DNA of 64,000 nt from Microthyrium microscopicum (Eukaryota). Position 1 is the stretch's first letter. Every line of letters begins with the position of its first letter. The notes beneath the pieces are model-generated. The model did no database searches. It saw only the letters and a list, made by a program, of their open reading frames with translations, and was not told the DNA's origin. This document shows, piece by piece, positions 5,093-15,673 of the stretch. The translations under genes were made by a program, and so were the position numbers. Location of the stretch: contig MU004234.1 in NCBI GenBank assembly GCA_010405405.1, positions 292,993 to 356,992 of the forward strand. The letters are read 5' to 3'.

Positions 5093-7635
5093 ATGGCGAT
5101 CCAAAAGAAGGTACGGTAATGAATTCCTGTATAACTCGTAAGCTAACTGTTCTCTAGCACGGCAAAGGCCGTCTCGATAAATGGTACCGCCTCGCCAAAG
5201 AGAAAGGATACCGCGCTCGTGCCGCCTTCAAACTCATCCAGCTAAACAAGAAATACCACTTCCTGGAGAAGAGCAAAGTGCTCATCGATCTCTGCGCCGC
5301 ACCTGGATCATGGTGTCAAGTTGCCGCGGAGGTCATGCCTCCCAACAGTCTCATCGTCGGCGTCGATCTCTCCCCAATCAAAGCCATTCCTCGTTGTATT
5401 ACATTTCAAAGCGATATCACAACAGACAAGTGTCGCGCGACGCTTCGTCAACATTTGAAGACATGGAAGGCCGATACTGTGCTCCATGACGGTGCGCCGA
5501 ATGTTGGTACCGCATGGGTTCAGGATGCATACACGCAGGCGGAATTGGTGCTGCAGAGTATGAAGTTGGCTACCGACTTTTTGGCCGAGGGCGGGACGTT
5601 TGTTACCAAGATCTTCCGATCGAAGGATTACAACTCACTACTCTGGGTTTTTAATCAGCTTTTTACGAAGGTTGAAGCAACCAAGCCACCATCCTCCAGA
5701 AGTGTATCTGCCGAGATCTTCGTCGTATGTCGTGGTTACAAGGCACCCAAGAAATTAGACCCAAAGTTTCTGGACCCAAAGTCCGTATTCGCGGATTTGC
5801 AAGAGGCCACACCCAACAACGAGGCAAAGGTCTTCAATCCGGAGAAGAAGAAGCGTAAGAGAGAGGGTTACGAAGAGGGTGACTGGACACAATTCAAGGA
5901 AGTACCCGCCAGCGAATTCATCCAAACCTCAGATCCTATCGCTATGCTGGCTACTGTCAACAAGCTCAGCTTCGAGCAAAAGCCAAACGGCGATATCGCA
6001 CTAGCTACCCTGGATCGTCTACCGGAAACCACTGAAGAAGTCCGATTATGTTGTGCAGATCTCAAAGTGCTCGGCAGAAAGGATTTCAGAACACTTCTAC
6101 GGTGGAGACTGAAAGCTCGAGATATTTTTGGATTTGCATCAAAGAAGGACGATGTAGCTGGCGAAGAGGAGGTTGCAGAAGTAGCGCCAATGGATGAGGA
6201 AATGAAGATTGCAGAAGAGATGGAACGTTTGAAAGAACAAGGTGACAAGAAAAAGAAAAAGGAGCGAAGAAGAAACAACGAGCAAAAACAAAAAGATATC
6301 GTACGAATGCAAATGCACATGACGACTCCCATGGAGCTAGGCATGGAACAATCTGGTCCAGAAGGCGAAGGTGCGATGTTCGATTTGAAACCAGTCGACA
6401 AGTCCGGCGCTGTGAGCCACATTTCTCGAGGACGAATGCACACTGTTGTCGAAGAAGAGGTACAACCAAATTCGGAGGATGATGAAGACATGGATTCTGA
6501 TTCTGATGGAGATATGCTTGAACGCCAACTGGACAACATGTACGACGATTTTCAGGATCGCCGAAAGGCTGCGGATGCAAAATATCGCGCCAAAAAAGCT
6601 CGTGAGGAGTATGGAGATGCAGAGTGGAAGGGCATATCTGACAGTGAGCATGAAGAAGAGTCAAGTGATGACGGTATCGTGGAGGATGATCAAAGTGATG
6701 CATCTGATGATGAAGAGGATGGCCCAAAGACACTTATCAAGGATTTGGACAACAGCGGTACGACCAAGGGATTGACACGTCGTGCTGCCCTGTTCTTCGA
6801 TCAAGACATATTCAAAAACATCCCAGACTTGGAAGATGATGGTTCCGAGGAAGATGAAGATAGCGGTATTGACGTTGACGAATCTCCGGAGCTGAGTCAA
6901 TCGCAAGCCGTGCCGGAAACAACAAATAAGACTTTTGAAACCGAAATAGACGAAGCAGTTCAAGACTCGGACTCGGACTCAGAAAACGATTTCGAGATCA
7001 TGGGAGTAGAGGACAAGATGGAGACCTGGGAAGAGGAAGATGATCCTGAACCAATGAAAAATGGCCGACCGGACATCGACATCATCACAGCTGAAGCAAT
7101 GACATTAGCTCACGAACTAGCCACCGGCAAAAAGACAAAAGCTGGGCTGGCCGATGACAACTTCAACAGATACACCTTCCGATCCACTGATGGACTTCCA
7201 GACTGGTTCTTAGACGATGAAAACGAGCACGCCAGAATTCAACGTCCAATCACTAAAGCGGCTGCCAATGCTATCAAAGAAAAGCTGAGAGCACTCAACG
7301 CGCGACCAATCAAGAAGGTCATGGAAGCGAAAGCCCGAAAGAAGTTCAAGGCTGCTCGTCGACTAGAGAAATTGAAGAAGAAGAGCGCCCTCTTACTTGA
7401 AGATGAAGGGGTGTCTATGGCCGACAAGGCGAAGTCCATTTCACAGATGATGGCCAAAGCTGCCAAGAAGCAACCGAAGCGGAATACTAAGCTTGTGTTT
7501 GCAAAGGGCGGTAATAGAGGTATCAGTGGCCGTCCAAAGGGCACGAAAGGCCGTTATAAGATGGTTGATGCGAGATTGAAGAAGGATGTTCGTGCGCAGA
7601 AGCGGTTGAAGAAGCGGGACAGCAAGAAACGATAA
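5093..7635 (+). CDS. SPB1: AdoMet-dependent rRNA 2'-O-methyltransferase Spb1
   Basis: Exon 5093-5110 (MAIQKK), intron 5111-5157, exon 5158-7635 ([26 protein letters not shown]). Motifs [25 protein letters not shown]; Spb1 C-terminus LPDWFLDDE...ARPIKKV. Confidence 0.97.
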
Positions 7636-7903: not shown

Positions 7904-8857
7904 ATGTCTCGTCAAATGGATCCCGAAGTTTTGCAAGGTCTGCAGGCGTTCAGTGCTGCTAACCCTGGACCGCCAAATGCTTCGAATGCTGATCCTTAAG
8001 ATATCAAAACGAGAATAACAAATACAACACACAGGGAGCTCTTAGCACAGACACCAAAAGTAGGCGATGTCGAAACGACAAATTTCTGTACCACAACGAA
8101 TGATGGCCATTCATTGCTCATGCGTTGGTATACTAGAACAGCACCCTCCAACCCATCATCATCACCATCACCATCTCCATCACCATCTCCATCTCCAGCA
8201 ATTCTATTATTCACGGTGGCGGCTTCTTCGGCGGCTCAGTCGAATGGCACAAACCAGTAGTCTCCAACTACGTATCTATAAGCGGCATCCCCTTTCTCTC
8301 CATCGATTACCGCTTGACACCAGAGGCCAAGTATTCAACACTAGTAGAAGATTGCTTCACAGACCTGACCTAGCTACATGATCACACCTCAGAAATGAAC
8401 ATCGACCGTGCCCCCGAATCGCAGTAATGGGCGACAGCGCAGGTGGTGGTCTCACTCTCCTCGCTCGAGAACGCAATGGTCTCAAGATTGCAAAACAAGT
8501 TCTTGTTTATCCTATGCTGGACGACAAATCTACGACTCCCAAGCATGACTAATTTGACATCCTGCTACGGGACGCTACGGACAGCATGATGGCCTGGTCG
8601 GCAGTGTTGGGTGATCAGGTTGGTGGACCAGATGTGCTAGAAACTGCTGTGGCAGCGACAACCTATATTGAAGTTGGTGATGTTGATCATGTTAGAGATG
8701 AGTGCTTGGAGTTTGCATCGACGCTGTTGAAGGGTGGAGTTCAGGTTGAGTTTCATTTGAGGCCTGGATGTCCTCATTTATTCGACTTGCTGGCTCCGGT
8801 GCGCAGAGTATGAGAGCTGTTGGGGATCGTGTTAGGGCGATTCAGTGTATTCCATAA
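7904..8857 (+). pseudogene. Disrupted HSL-family (Abhydrolase_3) esterase/lipase
   Basis: HGGGFFGG (8212), IDYRL, GDSAGGGL (8430), YPMLDD, EVGDVD and PGCPHLF lie in different frames. In-frame stops TAA 7997 and TAG 8371; frameshifts near 8210 and 8413. Confidence 0.85.
8153..8197 (+). repeat. Imperfect hexamer microsatellite (CCATCA/CCATCT)n
   Basis: ccatcatcatcaccatcaccatctccatcaccatctccatctcca; reads (SP)n in the esterase frame. Confidence 0.85.
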
Positions 8858-9853
8858 GGCTGTTTTTTCTTTCCAAGCAAGAAACCGTCATATTGTTCTT
8901 TGCTAGAAGCTGTTCTTCATTTCATTATGTTCTTGTTTGATCAGTCATTTCGAACTTCGGTTCAGTGAATTTAGTACTTCAACCGAAGAAGTCCTATGTC
9001 GGATCAGATGTGAAACACATGATAGTAGAGTACCACCAATAAATTTAGCATTTCCAAGGATGATGCCAATCCTTGACCCTTGAAATGGATCTTCGTGCCT
9101 TGATTCTTAGCGTAACCTCGCCCATCATCTGTAGCTTCACAAAGCTACTGTATCTTCCACACTTAACCTCGCTCCAAAGTTTAGCACTATACAACTCCTT
9201 TGTCACTCCATCGCGAGCTTCAAGTTTGCTTGCGATCGACCACCAGGTCACGGCTATCGCTTCAAACCATCTCAGGGACAAAGTGGGGTCATCATCAGGT
9301 AGATCGTACCAACTACCAACGCAGCCTTCCGCGGGGCAAGCTTGGTTGAACAACCAAGTTCAGTGCACCTCACGCAGTCACGCAACCAACGGCGACTTGC
9401 ATGAATCCTGCGAACAGAGCTCTTGTACTACCATATCTTCCAGTGGCATCGCTACGATCTGCTATCAGTGCCCGCGCGATCCAACACATCACGATTTGCA
9501 AGACCTTGGATATTGAGGAGACAGGATGTTGAGCGGATTGAGCGGACCGGTAAGATATATTTCTTTCTATACTGTACATTGCACGACCCTCTTCTTCGAC
9601 CCTTGCCACAGCGCGATATCATTCAACACTGCAAACCCCAGAATGGTTGTGTATGAGGAAGCATCCAAGCGGGGGAGTACAAACGAAGAGCGGCCGCATA
9701 TATGGACACACTCGCTGAGCACCTACGGCACCGTCACTTGAATCTTTGACCTTAACCCACAAACACACACTTCCTTTCAAAATGCAGACTGATGTTGCAT
9801 TTCATTTTGTTGATCCGCTTTTGGCTCCTTATTACTATACAAGCTATAGTTGT

Positions 9854-11100
9854 ATGGTTCTTGCAATGACTAAGCTATTCTCACAGAAAAAGCCGTATTC
9901 GGCGGTCACGGTTCACATTGAGCGGCTGACGGGAGAGGAGTATGCGGAGAATGATCTCTCTGGTATCGTGGATCTGATAGAGGTCATTCGTATACAAGAC
10001 AGTGGGCCTACGGAAGCGGCGAGAGCAATTCGAAAGAAGCTGTAAGAATAAGGCATACGTTTACTGCGAGAGATGCTAATTGAACGCATAGGAAGTATGG
10101 GAATCTTCATCGCCAGCTTCGGGCTCTGACGATCCTGGACGGTCTCATTCAAAATGCTGGCGCCAGATTCCAAAGGACGTTTGCAGACGAGCCACTACTA
10201 GAGCGGCTACGTCTCATGCCCAGGGATGATATGGTCGATGCAGATGTTCGAGCGAAATGCAACACACTGTATCGACAATGGGCCGCTGCATACAAAACAA
10301 CACCAGGCTTAGCTCCCGTCGCCAGTCTGTACAAGCAACTTCCGACTACGAAAAAGATGCAGCCATCACAGTCACGAGTTGTCCGCGAAACAGAGCAAGA
10401 AGCGCAGCGTGAGATAGCAGCTTCGCCGCCGAAACCAAGTGCTTCAAAGCCACAGCCTCCAGTACCATCCAGACCAGTGCAACTGGGCCAAACGAGCAGC
10501 TCGTCATTTTTCAGTCGATCAAAGGACAAGAAGAAGAGTAAAGGGCATACATCGTTCAATCTGGAGAAAGAGAAGGGTCAACTCATGGAAACAATAGCGG
10601 CGTCTTCAGTTGCAAGCACCAATCTCATCAACGCTATTCGGTTAATCAACCGAGAGAACCAACGCGTCAGCGAGAATCCCGAAGCACGAAACCGTTTTGA
10701 GCAATGCAAAGGTCTACGTCGCTCAATTTTACGCTATATCCAACTGGTAGAATCGGAGCAATATATCGGCGGTCTACTCAGCGCCAATGACGAGCTCGTG
10801 AAAGCTCTGATGTCGTACGAGGTTATGGACAAGAGCATCGACGATGACAGCGACAGTGATGTAGAATATATGGCCAGCAGGGCCCGCCGCATGTCTGGTG
10901 GCAAGGACGTGGAGCAGCAACTAGCTGGCATCAGTCTCAATGCTGTTGCGGCATCACCACCTACTCCTCCTAGAGCTGTGGCGCCACCTCCCAAAGAGGA
11001 AAGTGAGGAAGAGGAAGAGGACGATGATGATGACAATCCGTTCGCAGATCGGAATGCGGTGAAGACTCCGCACATTGAGAAGACTGGAATGGCTTGGTGA
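9854..11100 (+). CDS. LSB5: VHS + GAT domain endocytic adaptor, Lsb5-like
   Basis: Exon 9854-10041 (KKPYSAVT...EAARAIRKKL), intron 10042-10091, exon from 10092 (KYGNLHRQLRALTILD). GAT-like LLSANDELVKAL; C-terminal acidic DNPFAD (NPF). A terminal intron 11097-11146 is possible. The start could be 9866. Confidence 0.82.
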
Positions 11101-11690
11101 GGCCCGATTGCGGGGATTCATCGAATATATACTAACTCATAACTAGGCGGTGATCTGACAGCATTGGGTAGTGTTAGAGGTGGCATTTCGTAACTCAATG
11201 TTCAGCTGGGCTATATTTATTCTCAAATCCTTTGAAGAGTCTCCCAGCTAGCGGCCATATAATCCATGTCAATTACACAAATATCCCACCTTCTTGTGCG
11301 TTTTGTTTTGGAATATTGGACCGTGTAGCTCTGCTGCTCTACCATCTTAATGCAGGTTTCCTGAATCATACTTGATCCGCCCTTTTTGAATCCCGGAACT
11401 TCACTCAAGTCCCACTTCTTCACATTTCCCAATAGCAATCCCTCCGTGTAAATAGTCAATTATTTCTCGTCTATACCGATTTTATATCGCATACATTGTG
11501 TCCAATCAGGGCTCATCTACAAAAGTGACCTCTCGGATCTACGTCACCAATCTGGATGAGCCTCGCGGCTACGCGGCTGTGCCATGGTTTCTTAGGTATC
11601 TGCAAGCTTTAATCTTTACGAGCCGAGCCTTGGAAAAAGTACCAAGAAATGCAAGCCCCGCTGACTCTCGCGCTAACATCAGTCGCTACA

Positions 11691-11840
11691 TATAAATCCT
11701 CTTGGAGGCCGTTCTGTGCTAACTCGTCTACCTTCGCTCAACCACCACGCACATTTACAGCTCTACCTTTTCGCACTTCCCATTGTGAGTATATTATGTA
11801 TATTTAGTGCTAATCGAGGACGGACTAATTTTGAGAACAG
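11691..11840 (+). promoter_or_regulatory. TATA box and 5'-UTR intron of the CaaX micro-gene
   Basis: TATAAA at 11691-11696, then a pyrimidine-rich leader. GTGAGT (11785)...CTAAT...AACAG (11840) intron ends 25 nt before ATG 11866. Confidence 0.65.
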
Positions 11841-11865
11841 ATCAGTAGTCGCCACAATCGTCAAT

Positions 11866-12044
11866 ATGCCTGGTAGCCAGACGTCCTCTATTGTCAAGCC
11901 CATCAAGCCTTCGGGCACCAAGAGCGGCTGTCTTGCTTGTCCGTGTCCGGATGGAGGCTGCTGTGAGATTTGTTGCTGTAAGTTTCTTGCTATCGCTTGA
12001 TTTAGTAGAGTGAATGGCTGATGTGGATAGGTACCGTGATGTGA
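11866..12044 (+). CDS. 41-aa Cys-rich peptide ending in CaaX (CTVM); candidate prenylated peptide
   Basis: Exon 11866-11977, intron 11978-12030 (GTAAGT..GCTGAT..TAG), exon 12031-12044. Product MPGSQTSSIVKPIKPSGTKSGCLACPCPDGGCCEICCCTVM. Confidence 0.8.
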
Positions 12045-12690
12045 GAGGGCAGAGAGATGCCGTTATGGAAGACAATCTATGGTGGTCATATCATGATCTC
12101 AGATGTTTATAGCATTTCCTACTGCACAGAGAGTTAATGAATAAAGACGAAATACTCCAAAACCGGGCGCTACCAACCACCTATCACAAGAACGATCACC
12201 ATCTGGCTTCGTTTTGCTTTCTCAATCATGGCTGTGAACTGAAGCCGCATTCCAAACTCTCTTGATTTGCCATGGAAATCTTAGGAATACCTGTGTCTTC
12301 AAGCTTTTGACCCCCCTGAACCAATCGCGCCATCTCCTTTGCTATCTTGAATACCGTCGCCATACCTCCACCGTTAAATCCCGCCATCACAAATCATCCA
12401 GGCACGCCGCCGATATGGGGGTAGCCATCTGGTGTGTAGCTCATGATTCCCTTCCGTGTGTAGTCCACGTTTCCACCCTGCGTTGCTCTTTTGGGTGCTC
12501 GCTGACAATGGCAGAACTGGCGCGCCACATAGCCATCGAAAAAACGCTCTTGGAGAGAGAAAAGTGTGAAGATTGCCTCACTGTCGGTTTGCTGTGATGC
12601 TTTAATTTGGCTCGAGATGTCGCTAATTACAACGTGGATAACTCGAAAACGATACTGCTTTTCTACTAAACAGCCTCTGAGCTCCTGTGG

Positions 12691-12710
12691 AACCGGCCAA
12701 TTGGCCGGTT
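12691..12710. repeat. Perfect 20-bp palindrome
   Basis: AACCGGCCAATTGGCCGGTT is its own reverse complement. Confidence 0.9.
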
Positions 12711-12778
12711 TCTGCCTTTTGATGGTACTTTTTCAATCAGTATAGATTGAATTCCTCGATTTGCCTCCGTTCTCATTA

Positions 12779-13636
12779 TTATTGTCCTAGTTCTGCAGGA
12801 TTTGTGCCATCGCGCACGACATTAACTTTGGGACTTCCGTCGAATTCATCTATCCTTGATTGTCCGTCCATTTCATTGACTTTCGGTTGTTCGGTAAATT
12901 CATAAGCAGCCATGGTGGGCGCTAGCTGAACGTCTGTATTGTTGCGCTGCTTTCGCTGTCGTTTCTTGTAGAAAAATATGGCTAATATGAGAGCCAGTAA
13001 TGCGACTGCTCCAACCGATACTCCAACAGCTATTCCAATCGTGGCTGACTTGCTAAGAGATCCCGAGTGAGGAGAATTTGACGTCGAGGGCGCGCTAGTA
13101 CTTGACGATGTGGAAGTACTTGAGGATGTTGGGCTTTGTGAGGTCGAGGATGAAGTCGAGGACGAATTCGCGGAAAGGAATATCCTGGAGCTGCTTGAAC
13201 AACATACTGTCGGATCTATAGCTCCACAACAGAAGGAGCCATCCGTCGGACATGATGTCAATTTAGCACTAGACGAAGAGTTACCTCCAGTCTAAACAAA
13301 GGATGATTCAGTAAAAGTTCACAAGCATCTACGCAGGCTGTAGGTAGCTTCACATACCGTTCCATCTAGACATATTTTATGGCAATTCGGGCTCTTCCAT
13401 GTCGGATCTGTGCATTCATCGCGAAACCAATACCCCTGAACAGAGTTATAGCATAGGCCATTCGCCTCGCACGCGTCGGAAAAAGTCGTGCGGCAGCATG
13501 GTCCATCCACTCCGACGACCTGATTGCATGGCACTCCGATCGGATCTGTCGTGGTGCCGTCTGGATAATAACAAGTAGCGCGACAAGTCCCAAATAGTTC
13601 CAGCAGGAAAAAGGCCAAAACGAAAGAGGGTATCAT
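12779..13636 (-). CDS. Single-pass cell-surface protein (signal peptide, Cys-rich ectodomain, Ser/Thr stalk, TM helix, short tail); Mid2/WSC-sensor-like architecture
   Basis: Exons 13636-13358 and 13291-12779. MIPSFVLAFFLLELFGTCRA signal; CYYPDG..CC..NGLC..CTDPTW.S..C..FCC; TM IGIAVGVSVGAVALLALILAIFFY followed by KKRQRK. Confidence 0.85.
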
Positions 13637-15673
13637 GATCGCAAACCACGGGATGAATGATACATGGACGGAGGAAACAAGGGTGGACCGCCAAGATAAA
13701 GCATTTCTCAAGAGACGACACAGGTGACAAAAAACAGAAAGCTACTCCGTAGTGGGCGCAATGGTTATTTCTAAAAACAACCTTAAAATGAACGCAATGC
13801 GTGGGCTGCGCCCCGACGAATGAAGCGATAAGCCCAATTCAGCCACGATGAAGTATGAGAGAAGACGAAACCAAAAGTCGGTAAAAACAAGAGAAAAGGG
13901 TGTCTAGCTGAACAGAATAAAAAGCTCTATCATTTGACTTCTTCAGAACTGCAATATCTTGCAGTTTGAATAGGTTACGTCTTGTATAAAACCTATAAGG
14001 CGGAGGGTCTGCTTACTCTGGAAATGGGCTTATACCAAAGAGTGCTAGTCTTCAAGCAAAGCGAATGCTAGGAGGTAGAGTAGGTCCAATCAGAGCTCGA
14101 TAATCTCCTGAAGACACGCCACGGCGTCGAAATAGCGTTTAGAATGTCTTACCATGCAGCGGTTAAAGTCCTTAATACGAGCTTTGCATCCTCACAACGT
14201 CCAATTCTCCGAACCTACTGTACAGCATAAAATTATGGAAATTCCAGTCTCTAGCACCGGCGATATTCGAAAACCATAGTCCATATCCGGCACAAAGATT
14301 GAGGCTCTCGAATATTTACGGCATGGCAGATCATGCCTAATACAACATACGTCATGGCAACATCTCTTGTCGCATCTACGGGCTCCATCTGACCTTGAGA
14401 ACGCCGAAAAATGGTCTTGTAGAGAGCAAGTTGTCGAGTTTCTCTTCGGATCCTTCGGCTCTGGTTGCTTTTGTATAACTCGGGATGTGTATGGCAACTG
14501 GCGAGGTACTCTAGACAACAGCGAAACGACACTGCTCTTCTCAACAGACACTCAAAGCATCGAGAACGAGTCAACAGATTCGTTTCCAGATATCAAGGGC
14601 ACTCAGAGTACCTGGCCATGGAAATATCCAATAACGCCATGCGTCGGCATTGCCATAAATTCAGACATTGGAGAATACTTATGGACCGTCCCAAGAGTTC
14701 GACTTTCCGAATCGGTTATTGCGACCAGTACTCTAGAATGATTTACAAAACAACAAAGGTAATTGATTGGAAGGTTTGATTGTGTATACGCTTGGAATTG
14801 GCTTCGCACCCATAGTGCGTAGTTTGGTAACATTTCTGGTTGAGTCTGACCACACAAATGATACCGGCGATGTTGGGTCGTCTCTACGCACTCATCGCTG
14901 TTAGGATATAAGAAAGGTCTCACGGTGATAAGGTACCTAGGTATATTAGCGGTATATGAATAGACCTTGGGTTAATTTTCATCTCCACGGTAGGCTAACA
15001 TTACTAGTTAACACAAAATGGTGCGTATCTAGCTTCCACGAAGGATTAAATCATACCGGTTGCATCGTCTTGTTACTGGGGTACACTATACTCAGTCCGC
15101 CAGTCTTGATTTTCTTCGCAAGAATCAAATATAAGGGCGGCTTTGTCCGCCAAAATTCTTCAAACGCCAGCACATCAACCCAAATCAGCGACCCCTTCTG
15201 TGCCTAGAACAAACTCGGGACTTCTCAAACGACGCACAATCCTTAGCGCAAAGCTCACCACTACTCGCCAACCATGGAGAGCTCCACGAGCAAAACTAAA
15301 GGTCATCTCGGTGACCTTGGGAAACTTCCTCGAAAAGTCAAGGACGGAATTCTAAAACATTTAGGTAAGAACACCCGTGTATAACAACGTCTTTGGACAA
15401 AACTCGACTGCGCTATGACTGTCATCATATTAGATGGCTGCCGGGCCTGCTAAAGATGTTCAAGAAAACTTTTAGTCTGCGGGACTTCAATTCACCGTGC
15501 TAATTAGGGTGATCTCACAATCTCAACACGTTCTGTGGCTTTCATAGTAGACACCAAAAGTAGCTTGATCCATATAGGGTGTTATAAACTAAGATTTGGA
15601 AAATTAGTGTATCACAATCTTCGACTGACAACTTCTAGGTATATTCCACAAATATCCTATCATCGTCGACAAG

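What the first reader, a model, noticed from the sequence alone, without database searches (positions are those of the whole stretch)
11691..12044. Hidden 41-aa Cys-rich micro-gene whose CaaX box is created by splicing: candidate lipopeptide pheromone or membrane-anchored metal-binding peptide
Seen: TATAAA, a 5'-UTR intron, and a coding intron splitting the CaaX Cys codon (T|GT ACC GTG ATG TGA) give MPGSQTSSIVKPIKPSGTKSGCLACPCPDGGCCEICCCTVM, with 8 Cys in the last 20 residues. The ORF track misses this because the unspliced frame ends CCCKFLAIA. Established: C-x-x-M is a farnesylation signal; ascomycete a-factor-like pheromone precursors are tiny, often begin MP-S/T-rich and end C-a-a-M; Cys residues next to a CaaX are often palmitoylated. 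Inference: this is either an atypical a-class pheromone precursor or a prenylated metallothionein/CYSTM-like peptide. Intron retention would switch prenylation off.
Basis: partly seen in the sequence, partly recalled or inferred. Interest (0 to 1): 0.8.

Follow-up and report, generated by a model that had tools for sequence, protein, structure and literature searches.

The report
Spliced cysteine-rich lipid-tail fungal micro-gene
This is a real, twice-spliced fungal gene for a 41-residue cysteine-rich peptide with a lipid-attachment tail; it belongs to a family published in 2023 as a putative mating pheromone, but the family looks more like a separate membrane-anchored micro-protein, because some fungi with a known pheromone carry it as well.

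Summary
RNA-type contigs show both introns removed (11785-11840, 11978-12030), giving the 41-aa product ending CTVM. The host is the Dothideomycete Microthyrium microscopicum.

The peptide is a short, divergent member of the Botrytis BCIN_13g03330 family, published as the 'putative Leotiomycete a-factor' (PMC10569646). A CaaX-blind scan gave 17 family loci among 82 matches. All 16 intact ones end in CaaX, none with an intron there, so the proposed intron-retention switch is not conserved.

Evidence runs against a mating pheromone:
- The family also occurs in Fusarium and Colletotrichum, which have a different a-factor.
- 10 of 13 long-type loci sit beside MED7; the Colletotrichum a-factor sits at cyanase/EBP2.
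- This genome has three triple-CaaX precursors that fit better.
- The peptide has no Asn processing site.

Best reading, inferred and untested: a farnesylated, probably S-acylated, membrane-retained micro-protein. An exported non-mating lipopeptide or a metal binder remain possible. This scan had already met the family in other genomes.

The parts
11691..11696 (+). TATA box (TATAAA)
   Evidence: sequence; 46 nt upstream of the most 5' base seen in an RNA contig (11742); function not tested
11742..11784 (+). exon 1, 5' UTR (start as far as seen in RNA; true start not mapped); no ATG
   Evidence: X3 contig covers 11742-11784; no ATG between the TATA box and intron 1
11785..11840 (+). 5'-UTR intron, 56 nt, GTGAGT...CAG, CTAAT-type branch candidates
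   Evidence: joint 11784>11841 GT..AG in X3; same joint as a loose end in X2
11841..11977 (+). exon 2: 25 nt of UTR, ATG at 11866, codons 1-37 and the first base of Cys38
11866..11928 (+). N-terminal half: PGS and SSIVKP family motifs, Ser/Thr/Lys/Pro-rich, no Asn
   Evidence: alignment A3; hhalign to long-type profile 91%, E 1e-6 over 23 columns
11929..11977 (+). cysteine cluster C-x-x-C-P-C-P-D-G-x-C-C-x-x-C-C (7 Cys): candidate S-acylation and/or metal ligands
   Evidence: C22, C25, D29, G30, C33 invariant in A3; 80 of 83 C-x-x-x-ending hits have 6 Cys in the last 26 residues
11978..12030 (+). coding intron, 53 nt, phase 1, splits the CaaX Cys codon; lineage-specific
   Evidence: X2 contig runs from exon 2 into exon 3; absent at this position in 16 of 16 intact homologous loci
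12031..12044 (+). exon 3 coding part: rest of Cys38, then T-V-M and the stop (CaaX box CTVM)
12140..12145 (+). AATAAA, candidate polyadenylation signal
   Evidence: sequence only

Best explanation
A single-copy gene for a cytosolic, lipid-anchored micro-protein, the short form of a family conserved across Leotiomycetes, Sordariomycetes and (here) a Dothideomycete. Shown: transcription, both splices, the 41-aa frame, family membership, conserved CaaX and Cys cluster, purifying selection in relatives. Inferred from established CaaX chemistry: Cys38 is farnesylated, TVM is cut off and the Cys is methylated. Inferred by analogy with A. fumigatus RasA and yeast CYSTM/CYSPD proteins: some of the adjacent cysteines are S-acylated, which locks the peptide on the inner face of the plasma membrane. 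There the conserved PGS/SSIVKP/CxxC..DG surface would act as a small adaptor or regulator of a membrane partner. It is not the a-type mating pheromone.
For: CaaX is kept in 16 of 16 intact loci found with a pattern that did not include it. 83 of 120 protein hits end C-x-x-x; 80 of those 83 carry 6 Cys in the tail. A CC/CCC run lies just upstream of the CaaX Cys, the layout of the RasA dual-Cys palmitoylation motif (PMC5879109, passages). Small Cys-tailed CYSPD proteins are held at the plasma membrane by palmitoylation (PMC10840359, abstract and opening text). Purifying selection: pN 0.02 vs pS 0.66 between short-type loci L027 and L049; ratios 0.16-0.28 for five long-type pairs. Against a pheromone role: the family coexists with the a-factor in Fusarium solani and Colletotrichum. 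10 of 13 long-type loci lie beside MED7, including loci whose peptides are nearest to Leotiomycete records (L048, 96% to Hyaloscypha) and to Sordariomycete records (L077, 98% to Apiospora). The authors of the family paper found no mating-type dependence and unusually high conservation. Three triple-CaaX precursors exist in this genome.
Against: No lipidation, localisation or phenotype was measured, and the membrane partner is hypothetical. Long-type members keep an Asn just before the (G)PG motif (92 of 109 hits with the motif; a V-N-x-N-G-like motif in 80 of 120). That resembles an a-factor N-terminal cleavage site and the PV[ND]xN starts of this genome's triple-CaaX units, which fits export better than retention. 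The cluster has more Cys and a more fixed CxxC..DG spacing than palmitoylation alone needs. The window's peptide is the weakest-scoring member tested (7.1 bits, 1 of 1000 shuffles, against 25.7 and 28.0 bits for the other short forms). It is not MED7-linked, so orthology rather than paralogy is not shown. No Pfam CYSTM match.
Confidence: 0.45

Rival explanations
1. Precursor of an exported lipopeptide signal that is not the mating pheromone. It would be made like a-factor (farnesyl, methyl ester, ABC export), with the cysteines forming disulfides or a metal knot outside the cell. Long forms would be cut after the conserved Asn; short forms start at that same point after Met removal.
For: Asn precedes the xPG motif in 92 of 109 hits. 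Short forms begin M-P-[GPA]-S exactly where long forms read N-G-P-G-S. The triple-CaaX units in this genome start with a similar PV[ND]xN motif. Axl1/Ste23 cut after Asn (bioRxiv 2021.09.28.462209, passages). High expression in B. cinerea sclerotia.
Against: The implied mature peptide is about 37-40 aa, against 5-20 residues from Asn to the farnesyl-Cys in known pheromones. Cys runs beside a CaaX usually get acylated, which would favour retention (inference). Near-identity across many species argues against a specific signal.
Confidence: 0.2
2. Membrane-tethered metal or redox buffer (prenylated metallothionein-like peptide, or a zinc-knuckle half-site).
For: 7 free Cys in 16 residues. A CxxC motif is kept in 82 of 83 C-x-x-x-ending hits. 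CYSTM orthologues are linked to metal tolerance. One UniRef record carries the automatic name 'Metallothionein' (P0141), which is a label and not evidence.
Against: The Cys are confined to the C-terminal half, and the non-Cys N-terminal motifs are conserved. No Pfam metallothionein match for the peptide or four relatives. No solved-structure match below E 0.029. No induction data seen.
Confidence: 0.2
3. It is the a-type mating pheromone precursor of this Dothideomycete, as proposed for its Leotiomycete relatives.
For: Tiny, S/T-rich, starts MP, ends CTVM. The family was published as putative a-factor. The genome has Ste3 and Ste2 receptors.
Against: The same family is present in species with a different a-factor at the cyanase/EBP2 locus. 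It persists in the C. acutatum complex, where the a-factor is pseudogenised (P0128, P0134, P0135). No Asn 5-20 residues before the CaaX Cys and no GY motif. Three triple-CaaX h-type-like precursors lie in this genome, one 36 kb from the cyanase gene, while this gene is 1.26 Mb from it. No mating-type-dependent expression of the family in three Leotiomycetes.
Confidence: 0.1
4. A transcribed but non-functional or chance ORF.
For: No database record of this exact protein. No contig over it in the same-species run X1 (the tool says such a hole proves nothing).
Against: Both splices are seen. It has homologues. A long-type HMM ranks it first of 1974 window segments, with 0 of 5000 full shuffles and 4 of 5000 half-shuffles as high. 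Relatives show purifying selection.
Confidence: 0.03

Closest known systems
Leotiomycete 'putative a-factor pheromone' family, B. cinerea BCIN_13g03330 (Wilson et al. 2023, PMC10569646)
   Same: PGS ... SSIVKP ... C-x-x-C ... D-G-x-x-C ... CC ... CTVM in the same order; small; S/T-rich N-half; mostly unannotated (S10 File read).
   Different: 41 aa against 45-64 aa; lacks the MC...VNRNG leader; three extra residues (PCP) between CxxC and DG; lacks IPIP before the CaaX; 8 Cys against 6 in the tail; intron in the CaaX codon; not beside MED7; host is a Dothideomycete.
Sordariomycete and yeast a-type pheromone precursors (N. crassa mfa-1, F. graminearum ppg2, Colletotrichum a-factors, S. cerevisiae-type MFA)
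   Same: Under 100 aa, MP-S/T-rich start, C-terminal CaaX (ppg2 also ends CTVM) (S2 File).
   Different: Those have no Cys cluster beside the CaaX. Many have an Asn cleavage site 5-20 residues upstream, and the Sordariomycete genes lie at cyanase/EBP2. Some species carry both genes.
h-type / multi-CaaX precursors (T. reesei HPP1, Huntiella, Verticillium)
   Same: CaaX of the CTVM kind.
   Different: Those have three or more repeated units; this gene has one. Three other genes in this genome have that architecture.
CYSTM/CYSPD proteins (yeast Cpp1-3; PMC10840359)
   Same: Small protein with a C-terminal Cys cluster and a low-complexity N-half; plausible palmitoyl anchoring.
   Different: No Pfam match; CYSTM proteins are 60-150 aa with a helical Cys motif; this family adds a conserved CaaX and a CxxC..DG spacing.
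Dual-Cys plus CaaX membrane anchors (A. fumigatus RasA; PMC5879109)
   Same: Adjacent Cys pair just upstream of a CaaX.
   Different: No GTPase or any folded domain attached (AlphaFold2 pLDDT 52 and 47).
Fungal metallothioneins (features recalled, no call)
   Same: Tiny, about 20% Cys, no aromatic residue in this member.
   Different: Cys limited to one half; CaaX tail; no Pfam match.

Membership tests
BCIN_13g03330 family | PGS/SSIVKP N-terminal motifs plus CxxC..DG..C..CC cluster | tested here: met
   62% identity to L073, which hits long-type members at E about 1e-10 among 120 proteins. The loci were collected with a pattern designed from both forms, so this is partly circular.
BCIN_13g03330 family | C-terminal CaaX/CpaX, mostly CTVM | tested here: met
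   spliced product ends CTVM
BCIN_13g03330 family | length 45-64 aa and GY motif, as published | tested here: not met
   41 aa, no Tyr; GY is also absent from many published members and from the other short forms
BCIN_13g03330 family | MED7 as convergent downstream neighbour (feature found here, not published) | tested here: not met
   10 of 13 long-type, 0 of 4 short-type loci; MED7 is 438 kb away on the same contig, with no family gene in 9 kb around it
a-type mating pheromone precursor | under 100 aa with terminal CaaX | tested here: met
a-type mating pheromone precursor | Asn cleavage site 5-20 residues before the farnesyl-Cys | tested here: not met
   no Asn in the 41 aa; criterion (built on yeasts; ppg2 also lacks it)
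a-type mating pheromone precursor | cyanase/EBP2 synteny of the Sordariomycete a-factor | tested here: not met
   cyanase at C5:1,565k, EBP2 on C16, this gene at C5:305k
a-type mating pheromone precursor | mating-type-specific expression, Ste6 export, Ste3 activation, male fertility | not testable with these tools
   published relatives were not mating-type specific
h-type precursor | three CaaX-motif repeats | tested here: not met
   one motif; definition from PMC3068285
CYSTM/CYSPD | match to the CYSTM profile | tested here: not met
   0 Pfam families at E up to 10 for the peptide and at 0.001 for four relatives
CYSTM/CYSPD | palmitoylation-dependent plasma-membrane binding | not testable with these tools
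   needs acyl-biotin exchange and localisation
Metallothionein | profile match | tested here: not met
Metallothionein | metal binding and metal induction | not testable with these tools
   no data
Aspergillus PpgB (Krappmann et al. 2025) | sequence likeness to PpgB | not tested
   paper not held; only its citation was seen

The most novel reading that the evidence does not exclude
The family is a separate, class-spanning lipopeptide system of filamentous ascomycetes that has been mislabelled as a-factor. It would be a farnesylated, Cys-knotted 37-40-residue peptide, released from long precursors by a cut after a conserved Asn and from short precursors such as this one simply by Met removal. 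It would be exported or displayed as a mating-type-independent signal alongside the true pheromone.
Probability: 0.2. Interest if true: 0.75.

Novelty: new member of a known kind. Interest (0 to 1): 0.42.

Why it matters
The gene itself is one more member of a published family that this scan has met several times. The comparison around it matters more. It indicates that the only a-factor candidate published for Leotiomycetes is probably not the a-factor, because the same family sits in Fusarium and Colletotrichum species that have their known pheromone elsewhere, and MED7 linkage ties Sordariomycete-like and Leotiomycete-like loci together. That leaves a strongly conserved, mostly unannotated or mis-modelled lipidated micro-protein across at least three fungal classes, for which I found no functional study. 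Because it occurs in Sordariomycetes, it should be directly testable in laboratory moulds. It also points to the triple-CaaX genes as the better Dothideomycete pheromone candidates.

Tried and rejected
- No RNA holder is on record as RNA; the three runs are guessed RNA. I did not use depth or the X1 hole as evidence on expression level.
- Single-sequence homologue search with the 44-aa unspliced ORF found nothing. The ESM Atlas gave no usable hit for the peptide or P0004. Two of the three hits are long multi-stretch proteins, which I took as repeat matches without inspecting them.
- Exact look-up of 8 window ORFs found none. Cluster membership of P0004 and ten locus peptides could not be obtained, so the taxa of the four short-type loci and P0004 are unknown.
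- Viral-contig scans served as background: 0, 1, 3 and 1 matches, all chance. 65 of 82 metagenome matches were dropped as chance or unrelated.
- No microsynteny between the window and any of the 17 family loci at E 1e-4. Two short-type neighbours did not map near the gene.
- No second family copy was found in the genome with three queries; this does not prove absence.
- AlphaFold2 models were unusable (pLDDT 52 and 47), so no fold search was run. The PDB profile search gave one chance hit, E 0.029.
- Conservation of the 5'-UTR intron was inconclusive: a strict motif found it within 30 nt of the ATG in the window and in 1 of 3 short-type loci, background 79 of 2000.
- The C-terminus of P0004 cannot be resolved without its DNA.
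- Other acceptor choices for intron 2 were enumerated and set aside because RNA shows 12030.
- Not in print, as far as searched: searches found no functional study of this family, and none of the papers listed holds the term MED7. The library lacks most subscription papers.

Full report
Observation. The spliced frame is 41 aa with 8 Cys in the last 20 residues and ends CTVM. Three public runs, RNA by the tool's guess, were laid on 8000-14000. A contig of X3 joins 11784 to 11841. A contig of X2 covers exon 2 with loose ends equal to the end of exon 1 and to exon 3, so both introns are spliced at the predicted sites. X2 and X3 match the neighbouring genes at under 90% but this gene with 0 mismatches at depth 4-6. 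I infer carry-over of cDNA from this species, so they show splicing, not conservation. X1 (same species, neighbours spliced) has no contig over 11466-12035; the tool states that such a hole proves nothing.

Host and setting. The SPB1 gene at 5335-7635 is 100% identical to the Microthyrium microscopicum record, a Dothideomycete. Upstream lies a gene with a weak GAT-domain match. Downstream, on the other strand, lies a spliced gene for a Cys-rich, Ser/Thr-rich single-pass membrane protein. Nothing ties these neighbours to the micro-gene. The gene was found once in the genome.

Family. A search of 1.84 billion representatives gave 3 hits, of which one is a short relative, P0004 (58% identity, E 6e-5). 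Reading Wilson et al. 2023 (PMC10569646: abstract, passages, sections 9 and 23, part 1 of section 27, and S2, S3 and S10 Files) showed that their 'putative Leotiomycete a-factor' (BCIN_13g03330 family) has the same motifs in the same order. The PPTX figures could not be read and I did not open the expression table. I scanned metagenome contigs with a pattern covering only KP, CxxC and DGxxC, without the CaaX (background 3 matches in viral contigs). Of 82 matches, 17 are family loci and 65 were dropped as chance. Sixteen are intact, uninterrupted ORFs (14 distinct peptides), and all 16 end in CaaX. The seventeenth, L036, has an in-frame stop. Thirteen are the long published type. Four are a short type like ours, starting M-P-x-S with three residues between CxxC and DG; the closest, L073, is 62% identical.

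Strength of the homology. An HMM of 11 long-type peptides ranks our ORF first of 1974 window segments (E 0.0028). The spliced form scores 16.6 bits against 10.4 unspliced; 0 of 5000 full shuffles and 4 of 5000 half-shuffles reach it. A profile of 83 database hits scores it only 7.1 bits (1 of 1000 shuffles), against 25.7 and 28.0 for other short forms. So it is a divergent member, linked most firmly through the short type. The pattern was designed from both forms, which makes the collection partly circular. Codon counts show purifying selection (L027 vs L049: pN 0.02, pS 0.66). The intron in the CaaX codon is absent from all 16 intact loci, so the proposed retention switch is not a conserved device.

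Is the family the a-factor? A profile search returned 120 proteins. The named ones are all Leotiomycetes or Sordariomycetes (class assignment from my own knowledge); none is a Dothideomycete. Eighty-three of 120 end C-x-x-x. Many of the other 37 run past the CaaX or leave the family sequence midway, which I read as faulty gene models. Fusarium solani has a full-length member ending CTIL (P0179) and, per Schmoll et al. (PMC3068285, abstract and passages), also a putative a-type and an h-type precursor. Colletotrichum asianum, C. gloeosporioides and C. orchidophilum have family records (N-terminal half only, models break at the first CxxC). They also have unrelated a-factors in the S2 File of the family paper. 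The Colletotrichum a-factors lie between cyanase and EBP2, like N. crassa mfa-1, and are pseudogenised in the C. acutatum complex (PMC8661429, passages and section 16), where the Cys-rich sequence is still present (P0128, P0134, P0135). Ten of 13 long-type loci have MED7 as a convergent neighbour 0.3-0.7 kb away; these include peptides 96% identical to a Hyaloscypha record and 98% identical to an Apiospora record. So the Leotiomycete gene appears to have a Sordariomycete orthologue that is not the a-factor. The family paper itself reports no mating-type dependence and very high conservation, and doubts a mating role.

This genome. It has Ste2 and Ste3. Following earlier notes of this scan, I fetched all 58 C-x-x-M-stop matches and one more stretch, and confirmed three ORFs of about 73-78 codons with three CaaX-type units each (L124, L126, L133). 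That is the h-type architecture, with Asn 5-20 residues before each Cys. One lies 36 kb from the cyanase gene; our gene is 1.26 Mb from it, and EBP2 is on another contig. Our peptide has no Asn, so it fails the processing filter of Srikant et al. (bioRxiv 2021.09.28.462209, passages); ppg2 fails it too, so this test is not decisive. Against simple orthology with the long type: MED7 is 438 kb away on the same contig with no family gene in 9 kb around it, and 0 of 4 short-type loci are MED7-linked.

Mechanism. CTVM predicts farnesylation, proteolysis and methylation (established CaaX chemistry; described). Cys runs next to a CaaX are palmitoylated in A. fumigatus RasA (PMC5879109, passages), and small Cys-tailed yeast CYSPD proteins are held at the plasma membrane by palmitate (PMC10840359, abstract and opening text). 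I therefore put 0.45 on a membrane-retained, multiply lipidated micro-protein. One observation pulls the other way. In long forms an Asn precedes the xPG motif in 92 of 109 hits, short forms start exactly there, and the triple-CaaX units start with a similar PV[ND]xN motif. This allows an exported, non-mating lipopeptide (0.2). A tethered metal or redox buffer (0.2) cannot be excluded: CxxC is kept in 82 of 83 hits, but there is no Pfam or PDB support and the models are unstructured. The mating pheromone reading gets 0.1. I could not see the A. fumigatus PpgB paper (only its citation), so whether PpgB belongs to this family is open and would change these odds.

Novelty. The gene is a new member of a published family. 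Seven earlier notes of this scan describe similar Cys-rich CaaX micro-genes in other genomes, six of them filed under this family. I found none of the last three in print, within a library that lacks most subscription journals. Interest 0.42.

Noticed in passing
L106/L107 (G000:C2:3359449 and 3360364): A tandem pair of 31- and 32-codon Cys-rich ORFs ending CVVM and CVIM, each with an intron-like stretch just before the ATG and a KPVK/SPVK start. They do not score significantly against the family HMM (123 and 51 of 1000 shuffles as high), so they may be a second family of Cys-rich CaaX micro-genes.
   Followed up: partly
L124, L126, L133 (G000:C5:781k, C5:1529k, C7:1320k): Three triple-CaaX precursors. 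L124 and L133 share two peptide types; L126 has a third and lies 36 kb from cyanase. Best a-type pheromone candidates in this genome.
   Followed up: partly
window 12036-13636, minus strand: Spliced gene (intron 13292-13357 seen in X1) for a secreted-type Cys-rich, Ser/Thr-rich single-pass membrane protein with weak Mid2/Shisa-like matches. Its contig runs down to 12036, so the 3' ends may overlap the micro-gene, or the assembly merged the two transcripts.
   Followed up: no
L036:about 2140 (oriented 1770-1830): MED7-linked family locus with TAA where others have a Tyr codon, and an apparent intron inside the SSIVKP region: a pseudogene, a sequence error or a further micro-intron.
   Followed up: no
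P0128, P0134, P0135, P0158, P0195, P0210 and others: Many public models of this family run past the CaaX into unrelated tails, probably because the final ATG-stop is mis-called as a splice donor. This hides the CaaX from annotation-based screens.
   Followed up: no
long-type family N-terminus: Most long forms have a conserved Cys at position 2-3 (MC, MAC), a possible extra acylation site that the short forms lack.
   Followed up: no
L116 (G000:C3:2089893, minus) and L098 (G000:C1:1543411): Further small ORFs ending CCTVM or CTVM, unrelated to the family by HMM; they may be last exons of larger genes.
   Followed up: no
window 9520-9915: X1 holds a low-depth contig across the 337-nt intron 9549-9885 of the upstream GAT-domain gene: pre-mRNA or intron retention.
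   Followed up: no
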